Origin: a bacterium
Lineage (GTDB): Bacteria; Patescibacteriota; Microgenomatia; Woykebacterales; RBG-16-39-9b
Direction of reading: 5' to 3'
Assembly: GCA_030704665.1 (NCBI GenBank)
Contig: JAUYID010000009.1
Coordinates: 394,460 to 458,459 of the forward strand
Length of the DNA stretch: 64,000 bases
Shown here: piece by piece, positions 3,735-54,319 of the stretch
Layout: every line of letters starts with the position of its first letter
How positions within the stretch are numbered: position 1 is the first letter of the stretch
Notes under the pieces: model-generated
Told to the model about the DNA's origin: nothing
The model's input: only the letters and a program-made list of their open reading frames with translations
Databases searched by the model: none
Program-made: the position numbers and the translations under genes

Positions 3735-3778
3735 GAGAAAAAAAGCCGCGGAGGCCTAAAGGGCAGGTTTGCTTTAGG
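3735..3778 (-). terminator. putative intrinsic terminator of the LPXTG-protein gene
   Basis: On the minus strand an 8-bp stem (CCTAAAG...CTTTAGG) spans the stop codon and is followed after about 10 nt by TTTTTTTCTC. Confidence 0.4.
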
Positions 3779-4562
3779 CGAGGAAACGAGTTCGCAGTTT
3801 TCCTTCAGAGCTTCTTAACAAAAGTCCTGCTGCAAGGGTCAGTAAGACTGGAAGTACGGGAAGGCTGCTACCAGTCACAGGTAGACCACCGACATTTTCT
3901 CCGAGGACTGTCCCGGGTGTTTTAGGAGTTCCCGGCTCTTCTGGATTAGTTCCTGGTGTTGGAGTAGGTCCGACGTTGTTGTTATTGCCAGTATTTCCGA
4001 TCCCGATAGTGAAATTGATATCACCAGTGCTGATCGTTGCTTCCCCAGTATTTTTATCAGCTTCGTTGTTACCAGTGTTCAGATCAACCTGGGCTTGGTT
4101 GTTTATGTTCATCACGTTACTCTGATTGAGAGTCAAGGAGTTGTTTATATCAACCCTTGAAGTGTTGGTTGAGTTAGCACCGGTCTGGGTATTGGCGGAT
4201 GATGACGCTTCTGAGCTTCCACAACACGTTGGTGGGTTGATGTTGCTGCTGTTGAGTGTGTTATTTACAGTCAGAGAACCGTTGATGTCTCCGGTAGTGA
4301 TCGAGGCATCCCCAGTGTTTTTGCTAGCTTGGTTGCCTCCAGTGTTGGCGCTGATTTTGATTGTATTAACTACATTTGCTTCATTGTTTGAAGAAATAGT
4401 AACTTGGTTTGATGTTTCAACAGAGGCGGTATTTTCAGAATCAGCTCCAGTAGTGTCGTTGGTAGCGCTGTCAGCCAAAGCTAACGGTGCGGTCAGCAAC
4501 AGGGCTGCGATCGTGGAGCCGATAAGGGAGCTTTTTACAACTAGATTTTTCGTATGTACCAC
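3774..4562 (-). CDS. secreted cell-surface repeat protein with C-terminal LPXTG sortase anchor
   Basis: Signal peptide (LLLTAPLALADSA), then N/T/G/S-rich repeats of the form ANTGGNQASKNTGDASITTGD. The C-terminus is LPVTG plus a hydrophobic stretch plus RSSEGKLRTRF, a classical cell-wall sorting signal. Confidence 0.75.
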   Translation of the reverse strand: MVHTKNLVVKSSLIGSTIAALLLTAPLALADSATNDTTGADSENTASVETSNQVTISSNNEANVVNTIKISANTGGNQASKNTGDASITTGDINGSLTVNNTLNSSNINPPTCCGSSEASSSANTQTGANSTNTSRVDINNSLTLNQSNVMNINNQAQVDLNTGNNEADKNTGEATISTGDINFTIGIGNTGNNNNVGPTPTPGTNPEEPGTPKTPGTVLGENVGGLPVTGSSLPVLPVLLTLAAGLLLRSSEGKLRTRFLA

Positions 4563-6769
4563 CTCCCTCTGACCAATTTCAGAATTGTTTGGGCAGAGGC
4601 GGCAGTAATAATCAAGATAAAGATAAGGTTGCGCAGTGAGAGTCCACCCGAGGCTTGGTTGACGACCTGAGTAATATTTGGTGTTCCAAAGTTGTCCGAA
4701 ACACCCATGACTAAGGATTTTTTGTCTTGGCTTTCGGCACTGGCGCTCTGCTCGCCCGTGCTGCCGGGGTTGGAACCTGTATTGGAAGATCCTGTTGTGG
4801 TGTTACTACCCAGGATAGAGTTGATCACTTTATTGCTTGGGTTGTTTTTTCCGTGATCTAAGCCAGTAGAGCCAATGTTTTCTGCTGGCTTGCCGTCAGG
4901 AAAGATATCCCCATTGAAGCTTCCAAAAATATTCACAATACTTACGATCATACGAGAACCTAGAAAAGTGTTGTTCAGTATATTGAGGACGTTGGCAGCG
5001 ACGTTGACGTCTCCGGTCTTGATCGAAGCATTGCCGGTGTTCTTGCTAGCTTGGTTGCCTCCAGTGTTGGCGTTGATCTGAATATTGTTGTCAACAGTAC
5101 CTGAGTTGTTGACTTGAACAGTATTTGTGTTGTTGGCGCTAGAGTCAGCACTGTTGCTGCTGTCAGCTCCTGTTTGGTTGTTGACTGCCATCAGAGAGCC
5201 GTCAGGACCAACTACAAAGCTAAAGAAAGGAGAAGCTACTCCATCCTCATTCAGACTCATCAACTGACCAGTCCAGTTACCTAAATTGTTTACCAAAACG
5301 AGCCAGAGAGTACCGTCACTTCCAGCGGTGGTAGTGTTGGCGATGGTTGCTGTTTTAAGGTTGGCGTTGACATCCCCAGTTTGAATACTGGAGGTCCCAG
5401 TGTTTTTGTCAGCTGTATTATCACCAGTGTTGGCGTTGAGATTTATTCCGTTCAAGACGTTGGCGGTGTTGTTTACTCCAAGAGTTGAGCTGTTGTTAGT
5501 TGAGCTATCGGCAAAGTTGGCTGAATCGGAACCAGTAGTTAAGTTGGCGGCATTGAGGCTTTCCGGTGAAAAGATTGTCGAAGTTTCTCCGACTGGGGGT
5601 GGATTGAAGACAATATCTCCATTTAAGTTTCCGAAAACGTTGACTACCCCAAGCAAGAGTTCACCGGCTCCACCCAGAAAAGTGTTGTTCAAAAAGTTGA
5701 TCACGTTGACGGCAACATTGGCATCTCCCGTAGTAATCGTCCCGTCACCGGTGTTTTTACTGGCTGAGTTGTCACCGGTGTTGGCATCTAGAGTCGTAGA
5801 GTTGACCAGATTGCCGTTGTTGTCGATAAAGTAAGTGTTTGAAGTGTTGGAAGTTGCGGAAGCAGTGTTGCTACTCTCAGCTCCGGTGGTGTCGTTGCTA
5901 CTGGCTTGGCCAGTTCCAGCGGCAGTTTGGAGAACTTGAAGATCATCGAAATTCAAGATTAAGTCTCCGCTTTGATCATCCATGACATTGAAAACTTGAG
6001 CTCCCACGTTAACATTGTTACCAACGTTGATGGCGGTGAGAGTCAGGTCAGCATCCCCAGTAACAACCGAGCCGTCGCCAGTATTTTTGTCGGCAGTATT
6101 GTCACCAGAATTGGCTGTCAAAGTGGTCAGATTTTGTACATCGAGGTCGTTGTCAATATAAACATCAGTTGTGCTGTTGCTTTCTGAAGAAGCGTCGTTT
6201 TCCGAACCTGCTCCAGTGTTGGAATTGCTTGCCTCACCACTGACAGCGAGACAAGTTGAGATCGCACAAATGCTTGGATCCATTGCTCCAATTGAAACTT
6301 TGTTTGCATCTGAGCTTAGGTTGGCGACCAAACCTGCATCTCCGCTGACAACCGAGCCGTCGCCAGTGTTTTTATCTGAGCTGCTCTCACCGGTGTTCGC
6401 TTCCCCACTTGTAACGTTGAGGAGACTAGCGGTGTTGTCGACGTTGACCGAAGTATCAGAGTTAGTTGTGGTACTAGCGCTATTGGTTGAATCTGCTCCG
6501 GTGTTGGAATTGGTAGCGGCCGCGGCGGCCGCGGCTGCCTCGGCGGCGGCAGCTTCGGCTTCAGCCTTGCGGGCAGCTCTTTCGGCGGTCCATTTTTCGT
6601 ACCAGTTGTTTGGGTCATTCCAATCGATTTGGCTGCTGTCAGTTGTCGTAGTCGTAGTAGTGCCCGTCTCTCCTTCTGCTAGTACTGGGGCAACCAAACC
6701 AAAGCTTGAATAAGCTACCAAGAGTAAGCTGAGTAAAAGGCTAATTGTTTTTTGACTAAATTTTTTCAT
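4541..6769 (-). CDS. large secreted repeat protein (742 aa), paralogous to the neighbouring genes
   Basis: Signal peptide (LLLSLLLVAYSSFGLVAPVLAEG), a poly-Thr and Ala-rich linker, then at least 6 copies of the NTGDNxAxKNTGDGSVxTGDA unit alternating with NVxNxLNNTFLG segments. A C-terminal hydrophobic segment is followed by a basic tail. Confidence 0.75.
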   Translation of the reverse strand: MKKFSQKTISLLLSLLLVAYSSFGLVAPVLAEGETGTTTTTTTDSSQIDWNDPNNWYEKWTAERAARKAEAEAAAAEAAAAAAAATNSNTGADSTNSASTTTNSDTSVNVDNTASLLNVTSGEANTGESSSDKNTGDGSVVSGDAGLVANLSSDANKVSIGAMDPSICAISTCLAVSGEASNSNTGAGSENDASSESNSTTDVYIDNDLDVQNLTTLTANSGDNTADKNTGDGSVVTGDADLTLTAINVGNNVNVGAQVFNVMDDQSGDLILNFDDLQVLQTAAGTGQASSNDTTGAESSNTASATSNTSNTYFIDNNGNLVNSTTLDANTGDNSASKNTGDGTITTGDANVAVNVINFLNNTFLGGAGELLLGVVNVFGNLNGDIVFNPPPVGETSTIFSPESLNAANLTTGSDSANFADSSTNNSSTLGVNNTANVLNGINLNANTGDNTADKNTGTSSIQTGDVNANLKTATIANTTTAGSDGTLWLVLVNNLGNWTGQLMSLNEDGVASPFFSFVVGPDGSLMAVNNQTGADSSNSADSSANNTNTVQVNNSGTVDNNIQINANTGGNQASKNTGNASIKTGDVNVAANVLNILNNTFLGSRMIVSIVNIFGSFNGDIFPDGKPAENIGSTGLDHGKNNPSNKVINSILGSNTTTGSSNTGSNPGSTGEQSASAESQDKKSLVMGVSDNFGTPNITQVVNQASGGLSLRNLIFILIITAASAQTILKLVRGRWYIRKI

Positions 6770-6906: not shown

Positions 6907-8070
6907 TTAGTTGCTGCTGTTTACATTTACGTCTACATCGACGTTGTTGTTGCTGCCATCAGCCTCGTCTCCGTTAACGGAGTTTTCGTTGGCACTGCTG
7001 GAAACTTCAACATCAACATCAGCATCACCAGTGTGCTGGTCGTCAGCTGTGTTTTTGTTGGTTTCGTTGTCACCAGTGTTTGCACTGATTTTTCCGCTGT
7101 TCTTCACGTTGGCCTCGTTGTCTTGATCGATGTCAAGATCGTTGTCAGCAGAAGCTTCAGCTTTGTTTTTTGAATCCGCACCAGTTTTTTCATTGGCGGC
7201 TTCGAGTTCAACATCACAGCAAGCGTCGACGTTTGCTGAGTTGGAGTTGGCATTGTTTTCAATTCCAACCTCAACTTTAGCGTCACCAGTGTCGACAGAG
7301 CCTTCACCAGTGTTTTTGTTTGCTTCGTTGTCTCCGGTGTTGGCTTCAACGTCTACGTCATTGCAGAGGTTGGCGTCGTTATCTTGGTCGATATCGACAT
7401 CGGTTTCTACAGATGCGTCGGCGTAGTTTTCAGAATCAGCTCCAGTGGTGTCATTGGAAGCAGAAACACTTCCACCGTCACCCCCGCTGATGCTAACTGA
7501 ATTCTCGTTTACCATATTGGCGATGCTGACAACTACTTCAGCGTCTCCAGTGGTGACGTTACCTTCACCAGTGTTTTTGTTTGCTTCGTTGTCTCCGGTG
7601 TTTGAGCTGACACTTACGCTGTTGAAAACGTTGGCCTCGTTGTCTTGATCGACATCGATGTCGTTGTCAACTGAAGCTTCAGCAATGTTCTTGGAGTCGG
7701 CACCAGTTTTGGTGTTAGAAGCTGAGACATCACCAGTACAAGCTCCACAGTTGTCAAGACTGACAGTGTTGGAGTTGGCGGTGTTGCTCAAAGAAACTGT
7801 GACGGAAGCGTCACCAGTGGTGACGGAACCTTCGCCAGTGTTCTTGTTTGCTGTGTTTCCACCAGTGTTTGAAGAGACGCTAATGTTGTTTACAATATTA
7901 GCTTCATTCTTCTGATCGATATCTACATCGTTATTAGTGCTGACTTCCGCTTCATTGTAGGAACCGTAACCCGTAGTGTCGTTGCTAGCAGTTCCCGCCA
8001 AAGCTGGAGTCAAAGAGAAAGCAAGGGATGCTACCGCAGATGCTGCAGCAGCAATTACTTTTTTGTTCAT
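6907..8070 (-). CDS. secreted acidic repeat protein (387 aa), same repeat family
   Basis: Signal peptide (ASLAFSLTPALAGTAS) and four copies of SSNTGDNEANKNTGEGxVTTGDAxVxV. Asp/Asn rich, consistent with calcium binding. SD AAAGGGGGTG lies upstream of the ATG. Confidence 0.7.
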   Translation of the reverse strand: MNKKVIAAAASAVASLAFSLTPALAGTASNDTTGYGSYNEAEVSTNNDVDIDQKNEANIVNNISVSSNTGGNTANKNTGEGSVTTGDASVTVSLSNTANSNTVSLDNCGACTGDVSASNTKTGADSKNIAEASVDNDIDVDQDNEANVFNSVSVSSNTGDNEANKNTGEGNVTTGDAEVVVSIANMVNENSVSISGGDGGSVSASNDTTGADSENYADASVETDVDIDQDNDANLCNDVDVEANTGDNEANKNTGEGSVDTGDAKVEVGIENNANSNSANVDACCDVELEAANEKTGADSKNKAEASADNDLDIDQDNEANVKNSGKISANTGDNETNKNTADDQHTGDADVDVEVSSSANENSVNGDEADGSNNNVDVDVNVNSSN

Positions 8071-8152
8071 TTGTGTTTCACCCCCTTTCGTGTTTAGATT
8101 TACTAAATTCCTAATAAATTTAGTCTCAACAATTTAGAGTGTTAAACAATTT

Positions 8153-8224
8153 CACCAAACAAAAACCGGAGGCAGAAAACCCTGAGAACAAAATAAATTT
8201 GTTCAGAGTTACCTGCCTCCGGTT
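8153..8224 (-). terminator. intrinsic terminator or attenuator hairpin (minus strand)
   Basis: An 11-bp stem (ACCGGAGGCAG/CTGCCTCCGGT) encloses a nested hairpin. On the minus strand it is followed by TTTTTGTTTGG. It lies between the consensus promoter at 8358-8387 and the start of the repeat-protein gene at 8070. Confidence 0.6.
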
Positions 8225-8357
8225 GCGGTCGGCAAAGAAATAAGTTTTGGGCAATTACTTGTTAAAAAGGAGCAGAAGATGTCGATCTCTCGTTAGTTTG
8301 TATTATGCCGCACTGTGTTCGGCGTAATCAGCGAAGAAGTTAGTCACTTCTTCTTTG

Positions 8358-8387
8358 ATTATAAGTTGCTTTCAAAAAACTTGTCAA
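8358..8387 (-). promoter_or_regulatory. sigma70-type promoter TTGACA-18-TATAAT (minus strand)
   Basis: Exact consensus -35 and -10 hexamers on the minus strand. The promoter points toward the 8153-8224 hairpin and the repeat-protein gene at 8070. Confidence 0.5.
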
Positions 8388-8414
8388 GACCCAACGGGTC
8401 TACCATAAAGCTAG

Positions 8415-8627
8415 CTATTTTAATTTGTTAATAGGCCTTGAGTAAACGTAATTAGGTCTTTTTGCTTCGGGTTTATTTGTTTTCCTGATGATTCTTTCGG
8501 TGATTTGGACGACTCGGCCTGATTCTATGTAGATTTCAATTGAACCAAATTCTTTGTTGGCCACGGCCATCTTTATCTCTTCGAGAAGACGGTCGCTTAT
8601 TGGACTAGTGGAAAACTCATCAATCAT
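8415..8627 (-). CDS. DUF2292 (YezD-like) small protein
   Basis: 70 aa. GSIEIYIESGRVVQITERI matches the conserved core of the YezD/DUF2292 family. Confidence 0.55.
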   Translation of the reverse strand: MIDEFSTSPISDRLLEEIKMAVANKEFGSIEIYIESGRVVQITERIIRKTNKPEAKRPNYVYSRPINKLK

Positions 8628-8751
8628 AATTTTAGTTTACAAACTAAATTTGTTGACTAGCTTTTTTTAATCTCCTTCGGACTCAGGTCCTTCGGTCCTT
8701 TTCTATTTCTATATAGACGGGCCGAAGGCGCTTTCGTTACGGGCTAGCTTA

Positions 8752-9480: not shown

Positions 9481-11925
9481 TTAAGAATTTGGAACAGTGG
9501 GAAGGAGGCTTAAATTGTCGTTTTGGAAATCAAGAATGACACTGCTCCCCCGCTGCAAGGACCCTTCCAAAAGTTTTTTGGAAAGAAGAGCCTCAACTTC
9601 ATCCTGCATGAGGCGGCGCAGGCTGCGGGCCCCATAAGTTGGATCGTAGCCTTTTTTGGCCAAGAACTCGAGGGTTGCTGCTGTGACTTGGAGTTTAATA
9701 TCTTGTTGCTCCATTCTTTTGACTAGGTCAGCAAAAAGGAGTTTGACCACTTCAACTACTTCAGTTTGGGACAAAGGTTTGAAGACGATGACATCATCGA
9801 AGCGGTTGAGGAATTCAGGTTTAAAGGTGCCTTCTCTTTGGAGTTTGTCGAGCAAGGAAGTTTTGATTTGTGTGAGTGGTAGATTTGCGTTGACTGATTC
9901 GCGGATGTACTCGGCCCCCGCGTTGGAAGTAGCGATAATGATAGTATTGGTAAAGGAAATGATACGCCCTGAAGAATCAGCTGCCTTACCTTCGTCAAAA
10001 ATAGCCAAAAAAGTCTCTTGAATTTTTTGGTGCGCTTTTTCCATTTCATCAAGCAGTATCAAGGAAAAAGGTTTTGTCCTTACCGCCTCCATGAGCTGTC
10101 CCCCGCTCTCAAAACCGCTTTGTCCAGGCGGTGGACCGATGAGACGGTTGATCGAAGTCTCATTTTCAAATTCACTCATATCGAGACGAATAATTGCTTT
10201 TTCATCCCCAAAATAAGATTGCGCAAGAGCTTTGGCAGTTTCGGTTTTTCCGACTCCAGTTGGTCCGAGAAAAAGGAAAACCCCGATCGGTCGTGGGCTG
10301 GTTCGGACCATGGTGCGAGCCCGCCGAACCGCTTCAGCAACAGAAGTGATAGCCTCGTTTTGGGAGATAACCCTCTGGTGCAGCGTTTTTTCAAGATTGA
10401 GCAGTTTCTCCGCTTCTTCACCAGAAGCTAAAGCGATTGGAACCTTGGTTTTTGCAGTTAGAACAGATTCAACATCACCTGGCTCAACCACAGCTTTCTT
10501 TTTGAGGTTGACGGCGGCCGCAATTTCGTCGAGTAAGTCAATCCCTTTGCCGGGGAAAACCCGATCAGTCAAATAACGGTTGGCAAGCTCAACACAATAG
10601 GTCAAAGCTTTGTAAGTGACAGTGACCCGGTGTTTCTTTTCAATCTGAGCAAGCCTTCCTTCCAAGATACGGATCGTTTCTTCCTGGCTTGTTTCGGGAA
10701 TGTCGGTTACCTCAAAATGCTCTGAAAAGGCAGGTTTTTGTTCGATATATTGGTGGTAAGCGTTTCTTGTCGAGGTAGCAATGATTTGTAAAGCAGAGTT
10801 GGCGATTTGGTTAAAAATAAGTCCAGAAAGATCATAAGTCGCTCCAGCAATGCTTTCTATTTGGGGAATGTAAAGGACGACGTTGCCGGCATGTGAAAGC
10901 TCGTCAAAGATACTTTTGATTCTGTCTTCCAGCTCCCCACCTTGTGCTTGCGCAACTAAAGAAGTCAGGTCGAGCTGCAAAAAGCGCTTGTATTTGAGCT
11001 CTTCCGGCAGGGTTCCAACCAAAGACTTGAGGGCGAGACCGTAGATCAGAGCTTCTTTACCAATGCCGGGTTCCCCAAGCAAAATTAGATTGCGTTTACT
11101 GCCTCGACCGAGAACCTCTTCGATTTGGGTGATTTCTTTGTCGCGCCCGATCAAGGTCCCGTCAAAACTACCTTTGACCAGACCTTTGCTCAAATCGAGA
11201 GTGTACTGCTCAGTCCAGTAGGTCCAGCCTCCACTCCAGAATTCTCCCATACCCTGGCCCATACGTTTGGGAGATTTTTCCCAGAAAGGGACCGACTCCT
11301 CCCCGCGTATCCAAAAAGCAATATTGAGTAGATCGCTGCTTTTGAGCTTTTTCTGAAAAAGAGCCCGCGCCAGGAGTGGACTTTTTTCAAAGAGAGTTAA
11401 AAGTAAATCGATTTCATCGACAAAGGAGCGTTTTTCTTTTTTTGTATACTCAGCAGCGGTGGTCATCAGTTGGTTGAGGTCAGTTTTTTCATCGGCCAAA
11501 GACTTTTTCAAAGAAGCAGTTTCTTCGCGGCTAAAATCAGCCCTCGTCAAAACTTCAGCAACAAGTTTTGCTGAATCTAGAGAAGAAAAAAGTGAACCGA
11601 CCGCTTTCCAATCTGAGGTTTTAAGCAAGATTTTTGCTAGAGAAAGGCTGATAAATTTTTGGTAGTCCCCTACTTGCCCAACTCTGGCAGCTGGTTTCCA
11701 AAAAGAAAGTTTGTAGCGGTAAAAAGCTTCAAACATGACGAAGAGAATGAAAAGGGAAAAGGCTAAGTAAGGCGGTTTTTCGGTTTGTTGGGTCAGTGGC
11801 AGGATCAGCAACAAGAAAAGCACTACTCCCAGTCCACCACGGGCGACTTTGGCTGGTAGGGAGCCGTAGAAAAGGTCGAAACTGGCAATTTGAAAGATAG
11901 AAGCCTTAACGGAAGATAGATGCAT
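9481..11925 (-). CDS. Clp/Hsp100-family AAA+ ATPase (ClpC/ClpA-like) with N-terminal transmembrane region
   Basis: Two AAA modules (GEPGIGKEALI and GPTGVGKTETAKALA Walker A boxes, and the sensor-2 GARSLRR). The usual Clp-N domain is replaced by about 2 TM helices in the first 80 aa. Confidence 0.85.
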   Translation of the reverse strand: MHLSSVKASIFQIASFDLFYGSLPAKVARGGLGVVLFLLLILPLTQQTEKPPYLAFSLFILFVMFEAFYRYKLSFWKPAARVGQVGDYQKFISLSLAKILLKTSDWKAVGSLFSSLDSAKLVAEVLTRADFSREETASLKKSLADEKTDLNQLMTTAAEYTKKEKRSFVDEIDLLLTLFEKSPLLARALFQKKLKSSDLLNIAFWIRGEESVPFWEKSPKRMGQGMGEFWSGGWTYWTEQYTLDLSKGLVKGSFDGTLIGRDKEITQIEEVLGRGSKRNLILLGEPGIGKEALIYGLALKSLVGTLPEELKYKRFLQLDLTSLVAQAQGGELEDRIKSIFDELSHAGNVVLYIPQIESIAGATYDLSGLIFNQIANSALQIIATSTRNAYHQYIEQKPAFSEHFEVTDIPETSQEETIRILEGRLAQIEKKHRVTVTYKALTYCVELANRYLTDRVFPGKGIDLLDEIAAAVNLKKKAVVEPGDVESVLTAKTKVPIALASGEEAEKLLNLEKTLHQRVISQNEAITSVAEAVRRARTMVRTSPRPIGVFLFLGPTGVGKTETAKALAQSYFGDEKAIIRLDMSEFENETSINRLIGPPPGQSGFESGGQLMEAVRTKPFSLILLDEMEKAHQKIQETFLAIFDEGKAADSSGRIISFTNTIIIATSNAGAEYIRESVNANLPLTQIKTSLLDKLQREGTFKPEFLNRFDDVIVFKPLSQTEVVEVVKLLFADLVKRMEQQDIKLQVTAATLEFLAKKGYDPTYGARSLRRLMQDEVEALLSKKLLEGSLQRGSSVILDFQNDNLSLLPTVPNS

Positions 11926-51292: not shown

Positions 51293-54200
51293 CTATTTGG
51301 CCGAGGTCACCTGTAGGTGATCTGGTTCTTCCATGACTTCGAGTAGGATGGCGACTTTCCGGTGAGGTCGATCAGAGATCGTGTACTCTTGCGAGACACA
51401 ACCCCAATAATCGGAAACTCCGTCCGGAATTGCCAGGAAGTTGTCCGTATCGAAGTGGTAGGTCGCACTGTCTCTTTGGAAGGCAAGAGGGTTGCCCTTC
51501 AAGTCGAGCTTGAAGCACCAGAGGCCGAACTCGTGGTAGGAGCGGTACTCTTCCTCGAGGCGGGTTTTGTTGGCTAGATAGGTCTCCCACTCCTTCTCCG
51601 CTGCTTCTTGCACTCGGCGCTCGGCTAGGGCTTCTTCGCTTGCTCGCCGGGCCTTTTCTCTCGCTTCGTCTTCCCGTCGAGCTTCTTCAGTACGGCGTGT
51701 GGCCCTACGCTCTTTGAGGTGAGCATAGTTCTGGAGCTTGCCCTCGATCGCCTCGAGACTTTCAAAGATCTCCTTCTCAAAGAAAGTCTCGTTCAGCTGA
51801 ATCTCGAGGTGAATAAGTTGGGAGCGGGTGCGCGTTATTTCCGTTTGGGAAGCGTTCCAGCTTTCCCAGTCAGTACGCAGTTCCCTCTCAATCTCGAGGT
51901 GTTCGTCCTTGAGTTCTCGGATCCGCTGTCGAAGCTTTTCGACGATAGGGACAGCTTTCTCTGCTCGGCTCGGATCCCACAGAGGAGATCTTGGGTCGAG
52001 ACAGATGCTGCCCCAACGTGTTAAAGCTTGCTCCCCGACGAAGTCGGAGACTCGCAGAAAGAGCTCTTTGTCCTCGGTTTCTGCCACACTGGTTGCTTCT
52101 CCGAGAGCTTCAAGATAGAAAGTCTCGAGTCGGGTGGGGAGGGGAGTCGAAATTACTCCTCCACTACGGCGGTTGATCAGCTCCAGCTCCCTGAGAATGA
52201 TACGGTTGTGCTCTTGACAAGGGTGGAGGTTTTGGTAACCGGCCAGATCGCGAGCAAAGCGTGCGACCACCTCTGGTCCTTGCGCTCGAGCTTCGCGACT
52301 CGTGATCGCCGTGCCGCGGAAATAGAGACTTTCCGTCACCACGTAGGCCTGATGCTGAGCCGACCAGTAAGGGTCGCCCTCAGACTTAGCGCGAATCATG
52401 TGCGGAGCGATCTCAACAATCCAGTCCGGCTTGATCGCTGTGTTGTTGCGGGCGTAGGTCTTTGCTCCCCGCTTGCCGATGGACTCAACCACATTTTCGC
52501 AAACCAGAAGGTTTGGTCCGAAGTGGAAGAGGACGCTGCCGGGGTGAATGAAGACACTGCCACGCTTGGCCATGCGGTAAGCGTAGTTCCAGTCTGCCTT
52601 GGCGATGTTCTGGATCAGTCCAGCGGCGATCGCCTTGCAGATTTTGTCGGCAACTGCCCTTTCTTCGTCAGTGCGGTCGCGGTTTTCGAGAAAACCGAGG
52701 CGGCTGAATTGGATTGGGCTGCGGTCGATGACCTCCAGCAACTGGTCACGGATGTTGATGATCTCGTCCAGTGATCGGCTGTTGAGGAAGTTTGCTTCCG
52801 CCACTTGCCGATTGCGCCCTTCCCGTTCGTACCAGTAGATGGCGTTGAGACGGGTGAGCAGATCGCTGCGCGGGTGAAGGAACTTTCTTTGGGACTCTTT
52901 CGCCTCGTACTTCTTATCGTCTTGGGGACGGAAGAAGATTTCTTTGGCGGAAAGGGCGGCGGCAATGGTGACGATTTCCTCGACACAACCGTAGTCCTCC
53001 GCTGCCAAAATCATGCGGCCGATACGCGGTTCCAAAGGAAGATCGAGCAGGCGCTCCCCGATTTCGGTAAGCGTCCTTTCCGAGGTGATCGCCTCGAAGT
53101 CGGTCAAAGCCTCCAGTGCGTGCTGGATGTTTTCCCAACTTGGGTTGTCGACGAACTCGAAATCCTCCGGCCGCGTGATTCTCAGACCGAGCATCCGCAA
53201 GACGACTCCAGAGAGATCCGTCCTTTGGATCTCTGGCTCGGTAAAGTCGGGTCGTTGGTAGTCAAATTCTTCCTCGCGAAAGAGTCGCCAACACACTCCC
53301 GGTTGCGTCCGTCCAGCTCGGCCAGCTCGTTGCGCCAGCCCAGCTTTGCTGTGCTTGCGCGGCTTGAGCGAGCCGATACCAGTGATTGGATCGAAGTTGG
53401 TCTGGTTGATCAGACCAGAATCGAGGACGTAGACGACGCCATCAATGGTGATTGAGGTTTCGGCCACGTTGGTCGCGACGATGACCTTGCGGACATTCGC
53501 CGGTTCCAAAATGCGCCGTTGTTCCTCCACTGACATCTCACCATGAGCTGGAAGACACACTAGCCCGGAAAGTTCCAATCGACCAATCAACTCGATGACT
53601 CGGTTGATCTGAGCCTTGCTCGTCATGAAGACGAGGATGTCCCCGGCTTTGCCCGAGCGGTGGATTTCCGCCACCTTGAGCGCGGCCAGGCCTTCGGGTA
53701 GAAACTCGTAGCCGAACTTGTCGCGGGCGTTGCTGCTGAAGCTTTGATCAATGTAATTGACCGAGACCTCATACATACGACCCTCGACGTTGAGAACGGG
53801 TGCCCTGTTGAAAAAGTCCGAAAACTTTTCCGCATCGATGGTCGCCGACATGACGACGACGCGCAGCTCTGGACGTACTACCAAGGCCCTTTTGACTAGG
53901 CCGAGACAGAAGTCGGTGTTGAGACTGCGCTCATGACATTCGTCCAGCACCAAGACGTTGTAGGCGCTGAAGTTTGGGTCGTTGCGGGCCTCTTGAAGAA
54001 GGATGCCGTCGGTCATGAATTTGACCAGGGTTCCCTCTGCGGTGCGGTCGTCGAAGCGAATCTTGTAGCCGACATCTTCACCGACTCGGGTTCCCAGCTG
54101 TCCGGCGACATATTCGGCTACTGAAGTAGCGGCCAGACGACGGGGTTGGGTGACTCCGATTTTGGTGAAGCCGTCCCCCACCAAGTAGAGTGGAGTTTGA

Positions 54201-54319
54201 GTGGTCTTACCGCTGCCGGTTTCGCCGACGATGATGACCACCTGATTGTTTTTCACCGCCTCGATGATCTTGTGGCGGTGAGCTGCAATGGGTAAATCAG
54301 TGCGTCCTAGCACGTGCAC
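51293..54319 (-). CDS. DEAH-box ATP-dependent helicase (HrpA/HrpB-like) with long C-terminal coiled-coil extension
   Basis: GETGSGKTTQ (motif I), DECHERS (motif II), SATIDAEKF, TNVAETSITIDGV and QRAGRAGR, plus HA2 and OB regions, followed by about 350 unassigned residues. Confidence 0.85.
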   Translation of the reverse strand: MHVLGRTDLPIAAHRHKIIEAVKNNQVVIIVGETGSGKTTQTPLYLVGDGFTKIGVTQPRRLAATSVAEYVAGQLGTRVGEDVGYKIRFDDRTAEGTLVKFMTDGILLQEARNDPNFSAYNVLVLDECHERSLNTDFCLGLVKRALVVRPELRVVVMSATIDAEKFSDFFNRAPVLNVEGRMYEVSVNYIDQSFSSNARDKFGYEFLPEGLAALKVAEIHRSGKAGDILVFMTSKAQINRVIELIGRLELSGLVCLPAHGEMSVEEQRRILEPANVRKVIVATNVAETSITIDGVVYVLDSGLINQTNFDPITGIGSLKPRKHSKAGLAQRAGRAGRTQPGVCWRLFREEEFDYQRPDFTEPEIQRTDLSGVVLRMLGLRITRPEDFEFVDNPSWENIQHALEALTDFEAITSERTLTEIGERLLDLPLEPRIGRMILAAEDYGCVEEIVTIAAALSAKEIFFRPQDDKKYEAKESQRKFLHPRSDLLTRLNAIYWYEREGRNRQVAEANFLNSRSLDEIINIRDQLLEVIDRSPIQFSRLGFLENRDRTDEERAVADKICKAIAAGLIQNIAKADWNYAYRMAKRGSVFIHPGSVLFHFGPNLLVCENVVESIGKRGAKTYARNNTAIKPDWIVEIAPHMIRAKSEGDPYWSAQHQAYVVTESLYFRGTAITSREARAQGPEVVARFARDLAGYQNLHPCQEHNRIILRELELINRRSGGVISTPLPTRLETFYLEALGEATSVAETEDKELFLRVSDFVGEQALTRWGSICLDPRSPLWDPSRAEKAVPIVEKLRQRIRELKDEHLEIERELRTDWESWNASQTEITRTRSQLIHLEIQLNETFFEKEIFESLEAIEGKLQNYAHLKERRATRRTEEARREDEAREKARRASEEALAERRVQEAAEKEWETYLANKTRLEEEYRSYHEFGLWCFKLDLKGNPLAFQRDSATYHFDTDNFLAIPDGVSDYWGCVSQEYTISDRPHRKVAILLEVMEEPDHLQVTSAK

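What the first reader, a model, noticed from the sequence alone, without database searches (positions are those of the whole stretch)
8153..8390. Consensus promoter plus strong terminator hairpin with no ORF between them, a candidate small RNA or attenuator leader upstream of the surface-repeat gene
On the minus strand a textbook TTGACA-18-TATAAT promoter (8387-8358) is followed about 120 nt later by an 11-bp GC stem with a nested hairpin and a U-tract (8224-8153). The SD and ATG of the 6907..8070 gene come about 80 nt after that. The roughly 200-nt interval has no plausible ORF. This fits either a stand-alone sRNA or a regulated leader (riboswitch or attenuator) controlling the secreted repeat protein. 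An additional perfect 8-bp hairpin (GAAGAAGT..ACTTCTTC) sits near the predicted TSS.
Basis: seen in the sequence. Interest (0 to 1): 0.55.

Follow-up and report, generated by a model that had tools for sequence, protein, structure and literature searches.

The report
Conserved attenuator leader of surface-protein gene
The flagged promoter and terminator are real, and they belong to a conserved RNA leader, not found in Rfam 15 or in my literature searches, that ultra-small Patescibacteria place before their main cell-surface protein genes, probably to decide whether transcription stops early or reads on.

Summary
It has the only perfect TTGACA-18-TATAAT promoter in the 64 kb, a hairpin at the transcript start, and a long hairpin plus U-tract. 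About 70 nt further on lie an extended ribosome-binding site and the gene for a secreted repeat protein. Comparison with 36 other unique copies from Patescibacteria genomes and metagenomes shows what matters. The key element is a near-invariant 17-nt box, CYGACCGCAANCGGAGG (window 8232-8216). In every copy it folds into a small hairpin whose outer stem covaries. That stem uses the same bases as the 5' strand of the covarying terminator, so the two structures exclude each other, as in an antiterminator/terminator pair. No good promoter lies between terminator and gene in any locus, so the gene must be read through the terminator. The box usually precedes secreted surface proteins, and sometimes glycan-synthesis genes. 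It co-occurs with the small DUF2292 gene just upstream. Nothing in Rfam 15 or the searched literature matches it. Best reading: a factor-dependent transcription attenuator that works like RAT/BglG or HutP, with DUF2292 as the candidate factor. There are no expression data, and the factor is inferred.

The parts
8382..8387 (-). -35 hexamer TTGACA
   Evidence: An exact TTGACA lies within 150 nt upstream of the box in 19 of 31 unique loci, an 8.5-fold enrichment.
8358..8363 (-). -10 hexamer TATAAT (18-nt spacer); predicted start site about 8352-8350
   Evidence: This is the only 12/12 consensus promoter in the window, with 0.02 expected by chance. The start site is inferred, not measured.
8333..8353 (-). 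Stem-loop at the 5' end of the transcript, GAAGAAGU-gacua-ACUUCUUC
   Evidence: Similar hairpins near the start site occur in other loci. A role in mRNA stability is inferred from general knowledge.
8259..8275 (-). CUGCUCCUUUUUAACAA, the window's first copy of the recurrent YUGCCC/CUGCUC leader motif; it resembles boxA
   Evidence: The motif occurs at 12 per kb in leaders against 0.8 per kb background. The resemblance to E. coli rrn boxA is recalled from memory and was not tested.
8247..8254 (-). UUGCCCAA, second copy of the YUGCCC leader motif
   Evidence: The motif is present in 16 of 17 leaders longer than 70 nt.
8216..8232 (-). Near-invariant 17-nt box CCGACCGCAACCGGAGG (family consensus CYGACCGCAANCGGAGG)
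   Evidence: In 37 unique copies only positions 2 (C/U) and 11 (A/C/U) vary. The covariance model finds a single hit in the window, at 37.1 bits, with the next best at 10.1 bits.
8212..8236 (-). Box hairpin (putative antiterminator). Outer stem UUUGCC/GGCAGG, internal loop GA/A, inner stem CCG/CGG, tetraloop CAAC.
   Evidence: The same fold is the minimum-energy structure in 37 of 37 copies. The outer stem covaries: the -1/+1 pair is GC in 23, AU in 8 and GU in 3 copies (Fisher p = 2.8e-4). Bases 8221-8212 are also the 5' strand of the terminator.
8166..8222 (-). Terminator hairpin: 11-bp lower stem (8222-8212 with 8176-8166) and nested upper hairpin
   Evidence: Stem covariation across 17 copies: 95% of cells paired, 10 of 16 pairs with compensatory changes, score 0.553 against 0.178 when shuffled.
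8157..8165 (-). U-tract UUUUUGUUU, the predicted 3' end of the terminated leader RNA (about 190 nt)
   Evidence: A hairpin closed just before a run of at least four U occurs in 37 of 38 copies. Termination itself was not measured.
8089..8156 (-). Spacer between terminator and ribosome-binding site; contains only a weak promoter-like site (TTAACA-17-TAAATT, 9/12, 8145-8117)
   Evidence: Spacers are not conserved between loci and have no strong promoter.
8068..8088 (-). Extended Shine-Dalgarno AAAGGGGGUGA (8088-8078) and ATG (8070-8068)
   Evidence: GGRGGTG lies within 320 nt downstream of the box in 31 of 38 copies.
6907..8070 (-). Regulated gene: a 387-aa secreted repeat protein of a surface-protein family seen only in candidate-phyla bacteria, with no Pfam domain
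   Evidence: There are 331 homologues; every source name given among the 120 listed reads 'hypothetical protein', and the organisms named in them are Patescibacteria.
8415..8627 (-). DUF2292 gene (70 aa) just upstream on the same strand; candidate trans-acting factor
   Evidence: It co-occurs with the box. The regulatory role is inferred.

Best explanation
The region is the 5' leader of the surface-protein operon and most likely acts as a factor-dependent transcription attenuator.

Transcription starts at the consensus promoter (about 8351). The nascent RNA first forms the small box hairpin (8236-8212). Its invariant internal loop (GA/A), CCG/CGG stem and CAAN tetraloop would be the recognition surface for a trans-acting factor. 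If the factor holds this hairpin closed, bases 8221-8212 cannot form the lower stem of the terminator. RNA polymerase then reads through the U-tract into the strong ribosome-binding site and the 6907..8070 gene. Without the factor, the much more stable terminator (about -36 against -10 kcal/mol) displaces the box hairpin. Transcription then ends at 8165-8157, leaving a leader RNA of about 190 nt.

The most likely factor is a protein. The candidate is the small DUF2292 protein encoded directly upstream, an arrangement like hutP and its terminator.

Shown here:
- the promoter, box, both structures, their mutual exclusivity and their conservation;
- the association with envelope genes and with DUF2292.

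Inferred:
- that termination and read-through actually occur;
- the direction of regulation;
- the identity of the factor.
For: 1. All features are present, and the promoter is unique in the window.
2. The 17-nt box is exact in 8 of 8 loci found through DUF2292. In 6 loci found through the surface protein it is exact or differs only at positions 2 and 11. So its invariance is not just a product of the pattern search.
3. The box hairpin is the minimum-energy fold in 37 of 37 copies. Mean energy is -9.9 kcal/mol against -8.03 +/- 0.26 when 3' flanks are swapped between loci, and 0 of 200 swaps were as stable.
4. The outer stem covaries. The score is 0.318 against 0.207 when shuffled (0 of 500) and at most 0.187 when the partners are slid. 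The C2-to-U variant keeps a G-U pair.
5. The terminator stem covaries strongly, and a hairpin plus U-tract is found in 37 of 38 copies.
6. The two structures share G16, G17 and the following bases in both the long-stem and short-stem terminator classes.
7. No strong promoter lies between terminator and ribosome-binding site in any locus.
8. The position of the box varies within the leader, 1-265 nt after the best promoter-like -10. Its orientation always matches the downstream gene. This fits action on RNA or on the elongating polymerase rather than an operator on DNA.
9. DUF2292 lies upstream on the same strand in 13 of 26 independently found metagenome loci. Among 9 loci found through the surface protein, 6 have both DUF2292 and the box and 3 have neither. 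My own exact test gives 1/84.
10. Known systems use the same logic. The RAT hairpin partly overlaps a terminator, and hutP lies just upstream of its target terminator (PMC12591593).
Against: - There are no transcript data of any kind. Termination, read-through and the start site are all predicted.
- The inner 3-bp stem and the loops never vary, so covariation cannot support them.
- The box hairpin is about 26 kcal/mol weaker than the terminator.
- Some boxes have no terminator: L065 and two variant copies in L027. In one of these the box's GGAAG serves as the real ribosome-binding site 4 nt before the ATG. The box therefore has a role beyond antitermination.
- Half of the box loci have no adjacent DUF2292.
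- The DUF2292 model is confident over residues 1-50 (mean pLDDT 83), but it has no significant structural match, so nothing shows that it binds RNA.
- A distant DUF2292 homologue has no box.
- Related sequences share ancestry, which inflates the shuffle statistics.
- A weak 9/12 promoter-like site exists in the window's spacer at 8145-8117.
Confidence: 0.5

Rival explanations
1. Stand-alone small RNA. The consensus promoter and strong terminator make an abundant RNA of about 190 nt. Its conserved box is a seed or a protein-binding site that acts in trans, and the surface gene is expressed separately.
For: A strong promoter followed by a strong terminator must yield a short RNA. Some copies have a short unit of promoter, box and terminator with no ribosome-binding site nearby (L082, L100).
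Against: Apart from the box, the body of the RNA is not conserved, and its length ranges from about 25 to more than 250 nt. In 26 of 34 loci the unit sits directly upstream of, and in the same orientation as, a surface-protein gene that has no promoter of its own. Even the copies that look stand-alone precede envelope-glycan genes. No complementary target lies in the window at up to 3 mismatches.
Confidence: 0.12
2. Small-molecule riboswitch. The box hairpin is a minimal aptamer, and ligand binding shifts the balance between antiterminator and terminator.
For: The element has invariant nucleotides and an alternative pairing with a terminator. A candidate riboswitch upstream of S-layer-homology genes, the SLH motif, has been proposed (PMC6429828).
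Against: The conserved core is a single 7-bp hairpin with a 2x1 internal loop and a tetraloop. It has no junction or pseudoknot. No Rfam family matches even at E up to 10. The co-occurrence with a specific small protein gene points to a protein partner. The box also occurs without a terminator.
Confidence: 0.12
3. Recruitment site for processive antitermination, like ops/RfaH, nut/N or LoaP. The box, as RNA or as non-template DNA, loads a factor onto RNA polymerase. The modified polymerase then ignores the leader terminator and later ones in long envelope operons.
For: The box marks several envelope loci, including surface proteins, a TasA-like protein and glycosyltransferase or deacetylase operons, with three boxes in L027 alone. 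Its position in the leader is flexible, and some boxes lack an adjacent terminator. A boxA-like CUGCUC..UUUAACAA lies upstream in the window (the resemblance is recalled from memory).
Against: The covarying overlap of box hairpin and terminator is what simple hairpin competition predicts, and a processive mechanism does not need it. No NusG-like gene was seen in the 27 window proteins scanned, though this covers only part of one genome. The ops sequence is absent, and the loop is not like that of boxB.
Confidence: 0.12
4. Ordinary, unregulated features. The hairpin and U-tract simply terminate the upstream DUF4352-DUF2292 unit or stabilise mRNA ends, and constitutive partial read-through from a very strong promoter expresses the surface gene.
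For: Genes for abundant surface proteins are known to have long structured 5' UTRs (general knowledge). In some loci the terminator directly follows the DUF2292 stop codon, 13-34 nt away.
Against: This does not explain a 17-nt sequence kept unchanged between genomes whose neighbouring proteins are only 50-60% identical. It also does not explain the covarying stem that encloses the box and competes with the terminator.
Confidence: 0.06
5. Translation-level element. The box is a hairpin containing a Shine-Dalgarno sequence (GGAGG). It acts as a translational operator or as a decoy or stand-by site for the 30S subunit, possibly with extra pairing to 16S rRNA.
For: GGAGG is invariant. In L027 a variant box supplies the real ribosome-binding site of a TasA-like gene. 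CCGACCGC is complementary to GCGGYUGG next to the anti-SD in 16S rRNA, but this is recalled from memory and was not tested.
Against: In 36 of 37 copies no start codon follows the box at a suitable distance. The order of the two complementary segments does not allow one continuous duplex with 16S (my own reasoning). No 16S sequence was available to check.
Confidence: 0.05

Closest known systems
RAT/CAT antitermination (BglG, SacY, LicT, GlcT)
   Same: A small antiterminator hairpin in the leader partly overlaps an intrinsic terminator, and a bound protein prevents the terminator from forming (PMC12591593). Here too the box hairpin is the weaker structure and shares bases with the 5' strand of the terminator.
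   Different: The sequence and shape differ: a 17-nt box with a GA/A internal loop and CAAN tetraloop, against a 30-nt RAT palindrome. The neighbouring proteins have no CAT or PRD domain. The targets are envelope genes, not sugar catabolism.
HutP and the hut operon terminator (Bacillus subtilis)
   Same: The regulator gene lies immediately upstream of an intercistronic terminator whose RNA it binds to allow read-through. The order DUF2292 - box/terminator - target gene has the same layout, and some loci have no promoter in between.
   Different: HutP recognises repeated NAG triplets as a hexamer activated by histidine and Mg2+. The box has no such repeats, and DUF2292 is not a HutP homologue.
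ops/JUMPStart with RfaH, and LoaP/UpxY leaders (from my own knowledge)
   Same: A short conserved element in the long 5' leaders of operons for surface structures. Here the box precedes surface proteins and glycan-synthesis genes.
   Different: There is no ops sequence and no NusG paralogue was identified. The structural competition with the adjacent terminator points to hairpin competition rather than modification of the polymerase.
Lambda nut site (boxA + boxB) with N protein (from my own knowledge)
   Same: A small hairpin with an invariant loop lies downstream of a boxA-like sequence in a leader. The candidate partner is a small protein with a basic, disordered tail.
   Different: The tetraloop is CAAN, not a GNRA-like pentaloop. 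The boxA resemblance is weak and is not general across loci.
SLH motif RNA (candidate riboswitch upstream of S-layer-homology genes)
   Same: A conserved structured leader upstream of cell-surface protein genes (PMC6429828).
   Different: There is no Rfam match to it or to any family. The host lineages differ (Synergistaceae and Firmicutes) and so does the structure.
ANTAR-type antitermination (EutV, NasR, AmiR)
   Same: Protein-stabilised leader hairpins prevent a terminator from forming.
   Different: ANTAR targets are dual hairpins with hexaloops (from my own knowledge). Here there is one hairpin with a tetraloop.

Membership tests
Intrinsic (Rho-independent) terminator | G+C-rich stem-loop immediately followed by a U-tract | tested here: met
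   The 11-bp lower stem at 8222-8212/8176-8166 is followed by UUUUUGUUU at 8165-8157. The same is seen in 37 of 38 homologous copies.
Intrinsic (Rho-independent) terminator | Stem maintained by compensatory changes | tested here: met
   95% of cells are paired and 10 of 16 pairs have changes on both sides. The covariation score is 0.553 against 0.178 when shuffled, and at most 0.15 in the slid controls.
Intrinsic (Rho-independent) terminator | Transcripts actually end at the U-tract | not testable with these tools
   No transcript data are available.
Sigma-70-type promoter | -35 and -10 hexamers at 16-18 nt spacing, conserved at homologous loci | tested here: met
   The match is 12/12 and unique in 64 kb. 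The best upstream promoter scores 10-12 of 12 in 27 of 37 loci.
Antiterminator/terminator attenuator (general class) | Two mutually exclusive structures in the leader, one of them a terminator | tested here: met
   The box hairpin and the terminator share G16, G17 and the bases after them. Both structures have covariation support.
Antiterminator/terminator attenuator (general class) | The downstream gene depends on read-through, with no promoter of its own | tested here: inconclusive
   Spacer promoter scores are at background level, mostly 7-8 of 12. However, weak sites exist, such as 8145-8117 at 9/12, and no start-site data are available.
RAT/CAT (BglG family) | A regulator with a CAT RNA-binding domain and PRD domains | tested here: not met
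   A Pfam scan of the neighbouring genes finds only DUF2292, DUF4352 and a Clp-type AAA+ protein. The rest of the genome was not available.
RAT/CAT (BglG family) | A RAT palindrome of about 30 nt as the antiterminator | tested here: not met
   The conserved element is a 17-nt box in a 25-33-nt hairpin with a different sequence and loop layout.
HutP-type antitermination | Two sets of three NAG triplets bound by a HutP hexamer | tested here: not met
   The box and its flanks have no NAG-triplet periodicity, and there is no HutP homologue next to it.
ANTAR targets | Two tandem hairpins with hexanucleotide loops, the second overlapping the terminator | tested here: not met
   There is a single conserved hairpin with a 4-nt loop. 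The hairpins further upstream are optional and not conserved.
Known riboswitch, T-box or leader families (Rfam 15) | Match to a curated covariance model | tested here: not met
   There are no hits at gathering score in the 64 kb. At E up to 10 on 8050-8450 the hits are microRNA-precursor models that simply fit the long hairpin, plus weak sub-threshold matches such as L20_leader at 18.3 bits against a cutoff of 58.7. Seven related loci also gave nothing relevant.
ops/RfaH (JUMPStart) | The 12-nt ops element GGCGGTAGCGTG in the leader and a NusG paralogue | tested here: not met
   The leader sequence contains no ops-like string. No NGN/KOW protein was found among the 27 window proteins scanned. 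The genome-wide search was not done.
Trans-acting sRNA gene | Own promoter and terminator, conserved RNA body, position independent of the neighbouring gene | tested here: inconclusive
   A promoter and terminator are present. However, only the box is conserved, and position and orientation are tied to the downstream envelope gene in most loci.

The most novel reading that the evidence does not exclude
DUF2292 is a widespread family of small proteins of about 55-75 aa with no known function; my recollection, not tested here, is that it includes Bacillus YezD. The window protein also weakly matches the NCBIfam model for Pseudomonas OscA (24.5 bits against a cutoff of 85). It may be a new class of RNA-binding antiterminator. 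It would recognise the invariant box hairpin and so control a regulon of cell-envelope genes (major surface proteins, TasA-like fibres, glycan synthesis) in Microgenomates-group Patescibacteria. That would be the first regulatory circuit defined for these uncultivated, host-dependent bacteria.
Probability: 0.3. Interest if true: 0.8.

Novelty: new variant of a known kind. Interest (0 to 1): 0.68.

Why it matters
To my knowledge (not searched systematically), almost nothing is known about gene regulation in Patescibacteria (the candidate phyla radiation). Their surface proteins are thought to mediate attachment to host cells.

This element is a compact, sharply defined RNA signal: a 17-nt box, a covarying antiterminator stem and a terminator. 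It sits in front of their most strongly signalled genes, those with a consensus promoter and an extended ribosome-binding site. It also marks several envelope loci. It has three practical consequences:
- it defines a putative envelope regulon that can be mapped by sequence search alone;
- it gives a testable function to a widespread protein family of unknown function (DUF2292);
- it adds a new RNA motif to the catalogue of antitermination systems.

It can be tested in vitro without cultivating the organism.

Tried and rejected
- **Rfam.** I scanned the whole window, then the region at E up to 10, then seven related loci. The region scan returned microRNA-precursor models that fit the long hairpin and weak sub-threshold matches; the only hit in the related loci was an unrelated tRNA.
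- **Literature.** The exact box sequence appears in no paper. Searches on DUF2292 and on regulatory RNA in candidate-phyla bacteria found nothing relevant.
- **Leader peptide.** No start codon follows GGAGG at a usable distance, and hairpin interiors are not conserved. Rejected.
- **Upstream CUGCC motifs as antiterminator strands.** They would have to pair with GGCAG. Rejected because loci whose stem begins GGAGGUAAG keep the same motifs.
- **Pseudoknot or extended stem** between ACCGC and a GGU after the U-tract. It is present in only about 7 loci. Rejected as a general feature.
- **Trans target in the window.** No complementary site was found at up to 3 mismatches.
- **Phage copies.** The 10 viral-contig hits lack the box's hairpin-plus-U-tract architecture; nine are from high-GC contigs and several are ordinary ribosome-binding sites.
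- **NusG paralogue.** None was found among the 27 window proteins scanned.
- **DUF2292 fold.** A 147-sequence alignment gave pLDDT 83, but Foldseek against the PDB gave no significant match. The best hit, at E = 3, is an entry I recall as AbrB-like, and I do not rely on it. A PDB sequence search also found nothing.
- **16S rRNA complementarity of CCGACCGC.** No 16S 3' end is present in any held locus, so this was left untested.
- **Distant DUF2292 homologue** (P0042, L148/L149). It has no box, so the link holds only for the closer subfamily.
Full report
**Observation.**
- The promoter is TTGACA (8387-8382), an 18-nt spacer and TATAAT (8363-8358), a 12/12 match.
- It is the only exact TTGACA-N16-18-TATAAT in the 64-kb window, where 0.02 are expected by chance.
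- The 8-bp hairpin GAAGAAGU/ACUUCUUC (8353-8333) begins at the predicted transcription start.
- The large hairpin has an 11-bp lower stem (8222-8212 with 8176-8166), a nested upper hairpin, and the tail UUUUUGUUU (8165-8157).
- The ribosome-binding site AAAGGGGGUGA (8088-8078) and the ATG (8070) of the 387-aa gene follow.
- The 203-nt leader folds at -65.3 kcal/mol against -42.5 +/- 4.0 for shuffles (z = -5.7).
- The only ORF in the interval is a 42-aa TTG ORF with no ribosome-binding site. It crosses hairpin sequence that is not conserved elsewhere.

**Context.**
- The upstream gene on the same strand (8415..8627) encodes a 70-aa DUF2292 protein. Before it lie a DUF4352 protein and a Clp-type AAA+ ATPase.
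- The downstream 387-aa and 742-aa proteins have signal peptides and NTG/TGD-type repeats and no Pfam domain.
- The 387-aa protein has 331 homologues. Every source name given among the 120 listed reads 'hypothetical protein', and the organisms named are Patescibacteria.
- An identical DUF2292 protein is on record from a 938-kb contig labelled only 'bacterium'.
- Named relatives that carry the element belong to the Microgenomates group: Woykebacteria, Levybacteria and a Microgenomates group bacterium.

**A conserved module.** I gathered related loci in three independent ways.
- *Through DUF2292.* Seven loci from species-representative genomes all showed the same order of parts. The order is DUF2292, a consensus promoter, a leader of variable length, the sequence CCGACCGCAA(A/C)CGGAGG, a hairpin plus U-tract, a spacer, and GAAAGGRGGUGA with the ATG of a secreted repeat protein.
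- *Through the exact 17-nt pattern in metagenomes.* This scan returned 120 stretches. Those from high-GC contigs are chance matches. Of the 33 from low-GC contigs, 26 show the full architecture.
- *Through surface-protein homologues.* This gave nine loci chosen without reference to the box. Six have DUF2292 upstream, and all six have the box with a hairpin and U-tract. The other three lack both; two are from named Parcubacteria-group bacteria (Andersenbacteria L129, Staskawiczbacteria L130) and the third (L146) is unnamed.

In total there are 37 unique copies. Only box position 2 (C or U) and position 11 (A, C or U) vary. The box is exact in all eight DUF2292-anchored loci. In the six protein-anchored loci it differs only at those two positions. 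Its invariance is therefore not simply a result of searching with the pattern.

A covariance model built from these copies finds one hit in the window (37.1 bits, E = 3e-9). The next best scores 10.1 bits.

**The terminator is a real, selected structure.** Hairpins range from about 17 to about 100 nt, with entirely different interiors. I aligned 17 long-stem copies by fixed offsets from the box and from CCUCC, so the register did not depend on any predicted pairing.
- 95% of cells are paired.
- 10 of 16 stem pairs carry compensatory changes.
- The covariation score is 0.553 against 0.178 when shuffled (0 of 500 shuffles as high) and at most 0.15 when the partners are slid.

A hairpin closed just before a run of at least four U occurs in 37 of 38 copies.

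**The box is itself a hairpin that competes with the terminator.** When the window leader is folded without the 3' strand of the terminator, the box folds as follows:
- outer stem UUUGCC/GGCAGG;
- a 2x1 internal loop, GA opposite A;
- inner stem CCG/CGG;
- tetraloop CAAC.

The same fold is the minimum-energy structure of the 33-nt segment in 37 of 37 copies. Mean energy is -9.9 kcal/mol, against -8.03 +/- 0.26 when the 3' flanks are exchanged between loci (0 of 200 exchanges as stable).

The outer stem covaries. The pair formed by the base just before and the base just after the box is GC in 23 copies, AU in 8, GU in 3 and unpaired in 3 (Fisher p = 2.8e-4). The next pair is formed in 25 of 37 copies. 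The C2-to-U variant keeps a G-U pair. The overall score is 0.318 against 0.207 when shuffled (0 of 500) and at most 0.187 when slid.

The 3' strand of this outer stem (G16, G17 and the bases after them) is also the base of the terminator's 5' strand. This holds in both the long-stem class (CGGAGG.../...CCUCCG) and the short-stem class (GGC.../...GCC). The two structures therefore exclude each other.

In the window the box hairpin occupies 10 of the 11 bases in the 5' strand of the terminator's lower stem. It is much weaker than the terminator, about -10 against -36 kcal/mol. Termination should therefore be the default, and read-through needs something that holds the small hairpin closed.

**The gene must be read through the terminator.** The best promoter score upstream of the box is 10-12 of 12 in 27 of 37 loci. 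In the spacer between terminator and ribosome-binding site it is mostly 7-8, which is background level. The window's spacer has only a 9/12 site. Spacers can be as short as about 35 nt, as in L070.

**What the box marks.**
- In 26 of 34 loci the next gene encodes a secreted surface protein with a very strong ribosome-binding site (and reading). In L029 it is TasA/camelysin-like.
- Copies that look stand-alone precede envelope-glycan genes. These are a PIG-L-type deacetylase (L082), an NAD-dependent epimerase (L073), and an operon of glycosyltransferases and a deacetylase (L027) (I assigned these functions by reading sequence motifs, not by a family scan).
- L027 carries three boxes within 1.5 kb. 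One variant lacks a terminator. In another, the GGAAG of the box is the true ribosome-binding site of a TasA-like gene.
- L006 has two boxes, each before a surface protein.

The box therefore looks like the signature of an envelope regulon, and antitermination may not be its only mode of action.

**The DUF2292 link.** DUF2292 lies upstream on the same strand, 13-990 nt away, in 13 of 26 independently found metagenome loci. In several of these, 13-34 nt separate its stop codon from the box, with no obvious strong promoter in between. With the 6-versus-0-of-3 split in the protein-anchored sample (my exact test, 1/84), this is the pattern expected of a regulator encoded next to its main target with further targets elsewhere.

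A model built from 147 sequences is confident over residues 1-50 (mean pLDDT 83). It shows a strand, a helix and a beta-hairpin, followed by a basic tail modelled with low confidence. The conserved strand reads Q-I-T-E-R-x-I-K. No solved structure matches significantly. RNA binding is therefore a hypothesis, not a finding. A distant DUF2292 homologue has no box.

**Comparison with known systems.** The logic matches two known systems (PMC12591593). In RAT/CAT antitermination, a hairpin partly overlapping the terminator is stabilised by BglG-type proteins. In the hut operon, hutP lies immediately upstream of its target terminator.

Membership in these families fails on their defining features. 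There is no CAT/PRD or HutP homologue next door, no RAT palindrome, no NAG triplets, and no ANTAR-type dual hairpins. No Rfam family matches, including the SLH candidate riboswitch described upstream of S-layer-homology genes. The resemblance of the regulon to ops/JUMPStart-RfaH, LoaP and lambda nut rests on my own knowledge. No ops sequence is in the leader, and no NusG paralogue was among the 27 window proteins scanned.

**Verdict.** The window holds one copy of a conserved antiterminator/terminator leader of Microgenomates-group Patescibacteria that I found in neither Rfam 15 nor the searched literature.

The mechanism I favour is factor-stabilised antitermination, with DUF2292 as the candidate factor (confidence 0.5). 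The structural parts are shown by comparative analysis. The occurrence of termination, the direction of regulation and the identity of the factor are inferred. No expression data were available.

Noticed in passing
window 8275-8270 and 8254-8249 (minus strand); leaders of L002-L147: A second recurrent leader motif, YUGCCC/CUGCUC (often CUGCCC(C)AAA). It occurs at 12 per kb in leaders against 0.8 per kb background (Poisson p about 6e-22). It is present in 16 of 17 leaders longer than 70 nt and absent from short ones. Its function is unknown. The window copy CUGCUCCUUUUUAACAA resembles E. coli rrn boxA, but that comparison is from memory only.
   Followed up: partly
L148 1975-2003 and 2999-3030: In a locus with a distant DUF2292 homologue, CUGCCC motifs sit just upstream of start codons that have no Shine-Dalgarno sequence (CTGCCCCAAAGATG). 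One of them lies after another consensus TTGACA-17-TATAAT promoter. The motif may be a general 5'-UTR signal in these bacteria.
   Followed up: no
L027 2585-2617(-), 3847-3879(-), 4030-4046(+): Three box hairpins lie within 1.5 kb. Two variants (CUGACCGCAAUCGGAAG and CCGACCGCUCUCGGAGG) lack a terminator. In the first, the GGAAG of the box is the ribosome-binding site 4 nt before the ATG of a 457-aa TasA/camelysin-like protein. The canonical copy precedes a glycosyltransferase operon.
   Followed up: partly
L021 995-1011, L031 376-392, L071 1144-1160: Three unrelated low-GC contigs share the window's exact box variant CCGACCGCAACCGGAGG, followed by nnnnGGCTCAGnTTGCCA and no terminator. They appear to be a different, unidentified conserved element. 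The only Rfam hit in these loci is a tRNA on the L021 fragment, about 840 nt from the box.
   Followed up: partly
window 8660-8745 (minus strand): The region between the DUF4352 and DUF2292 genes contains several short CGAAGG/CCUUCGG-type hairpins (gcgccttcggc, ggaccgaaggacc, gagtccgaaggag). They were not analysed.
   Followed up: no
window 9481-11925 (minus strand): A Clp/ClpB-like double AAA+ ATPase of 814 aa scores well below the ClpB and ClpA equivalog cutoffs. Its long N-terminal region looks hydrophobic, which suggests membrane anchoring. It is conserved next to the DUF4352-DUF2292 module in L001.
   Followed up: no
window 4541-6769 and 3774-4562 (minus strand): The gene after the 387-aa protein encodes a 742-aa paralogous repeat protein with a C-terminal hydrophobic anchor. 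A large second gene of 709-791 aa follows the surface-protein gene in most related loci (L131, L132, L143-L147). This suggests a conserved two-gene surface operon.
   Followed up: partly
L129 2380-2450: An Andersenbacteria (Parcubacteria group) homologue of the surface gene lacks the box and DUF2292. It still has a long hairpin plus UUUUUUGUUU in its leader, preceded by GCCAACCUAAGAGGAC, which could be a degenerate relative of the box.
   Followed up: no
window 51293-54319 (minus strand): A 1008-aa DEAH-box (HrpA-like) helicase with HA2 and OB domains. It is unrelated to the finding.
   Followed up: no
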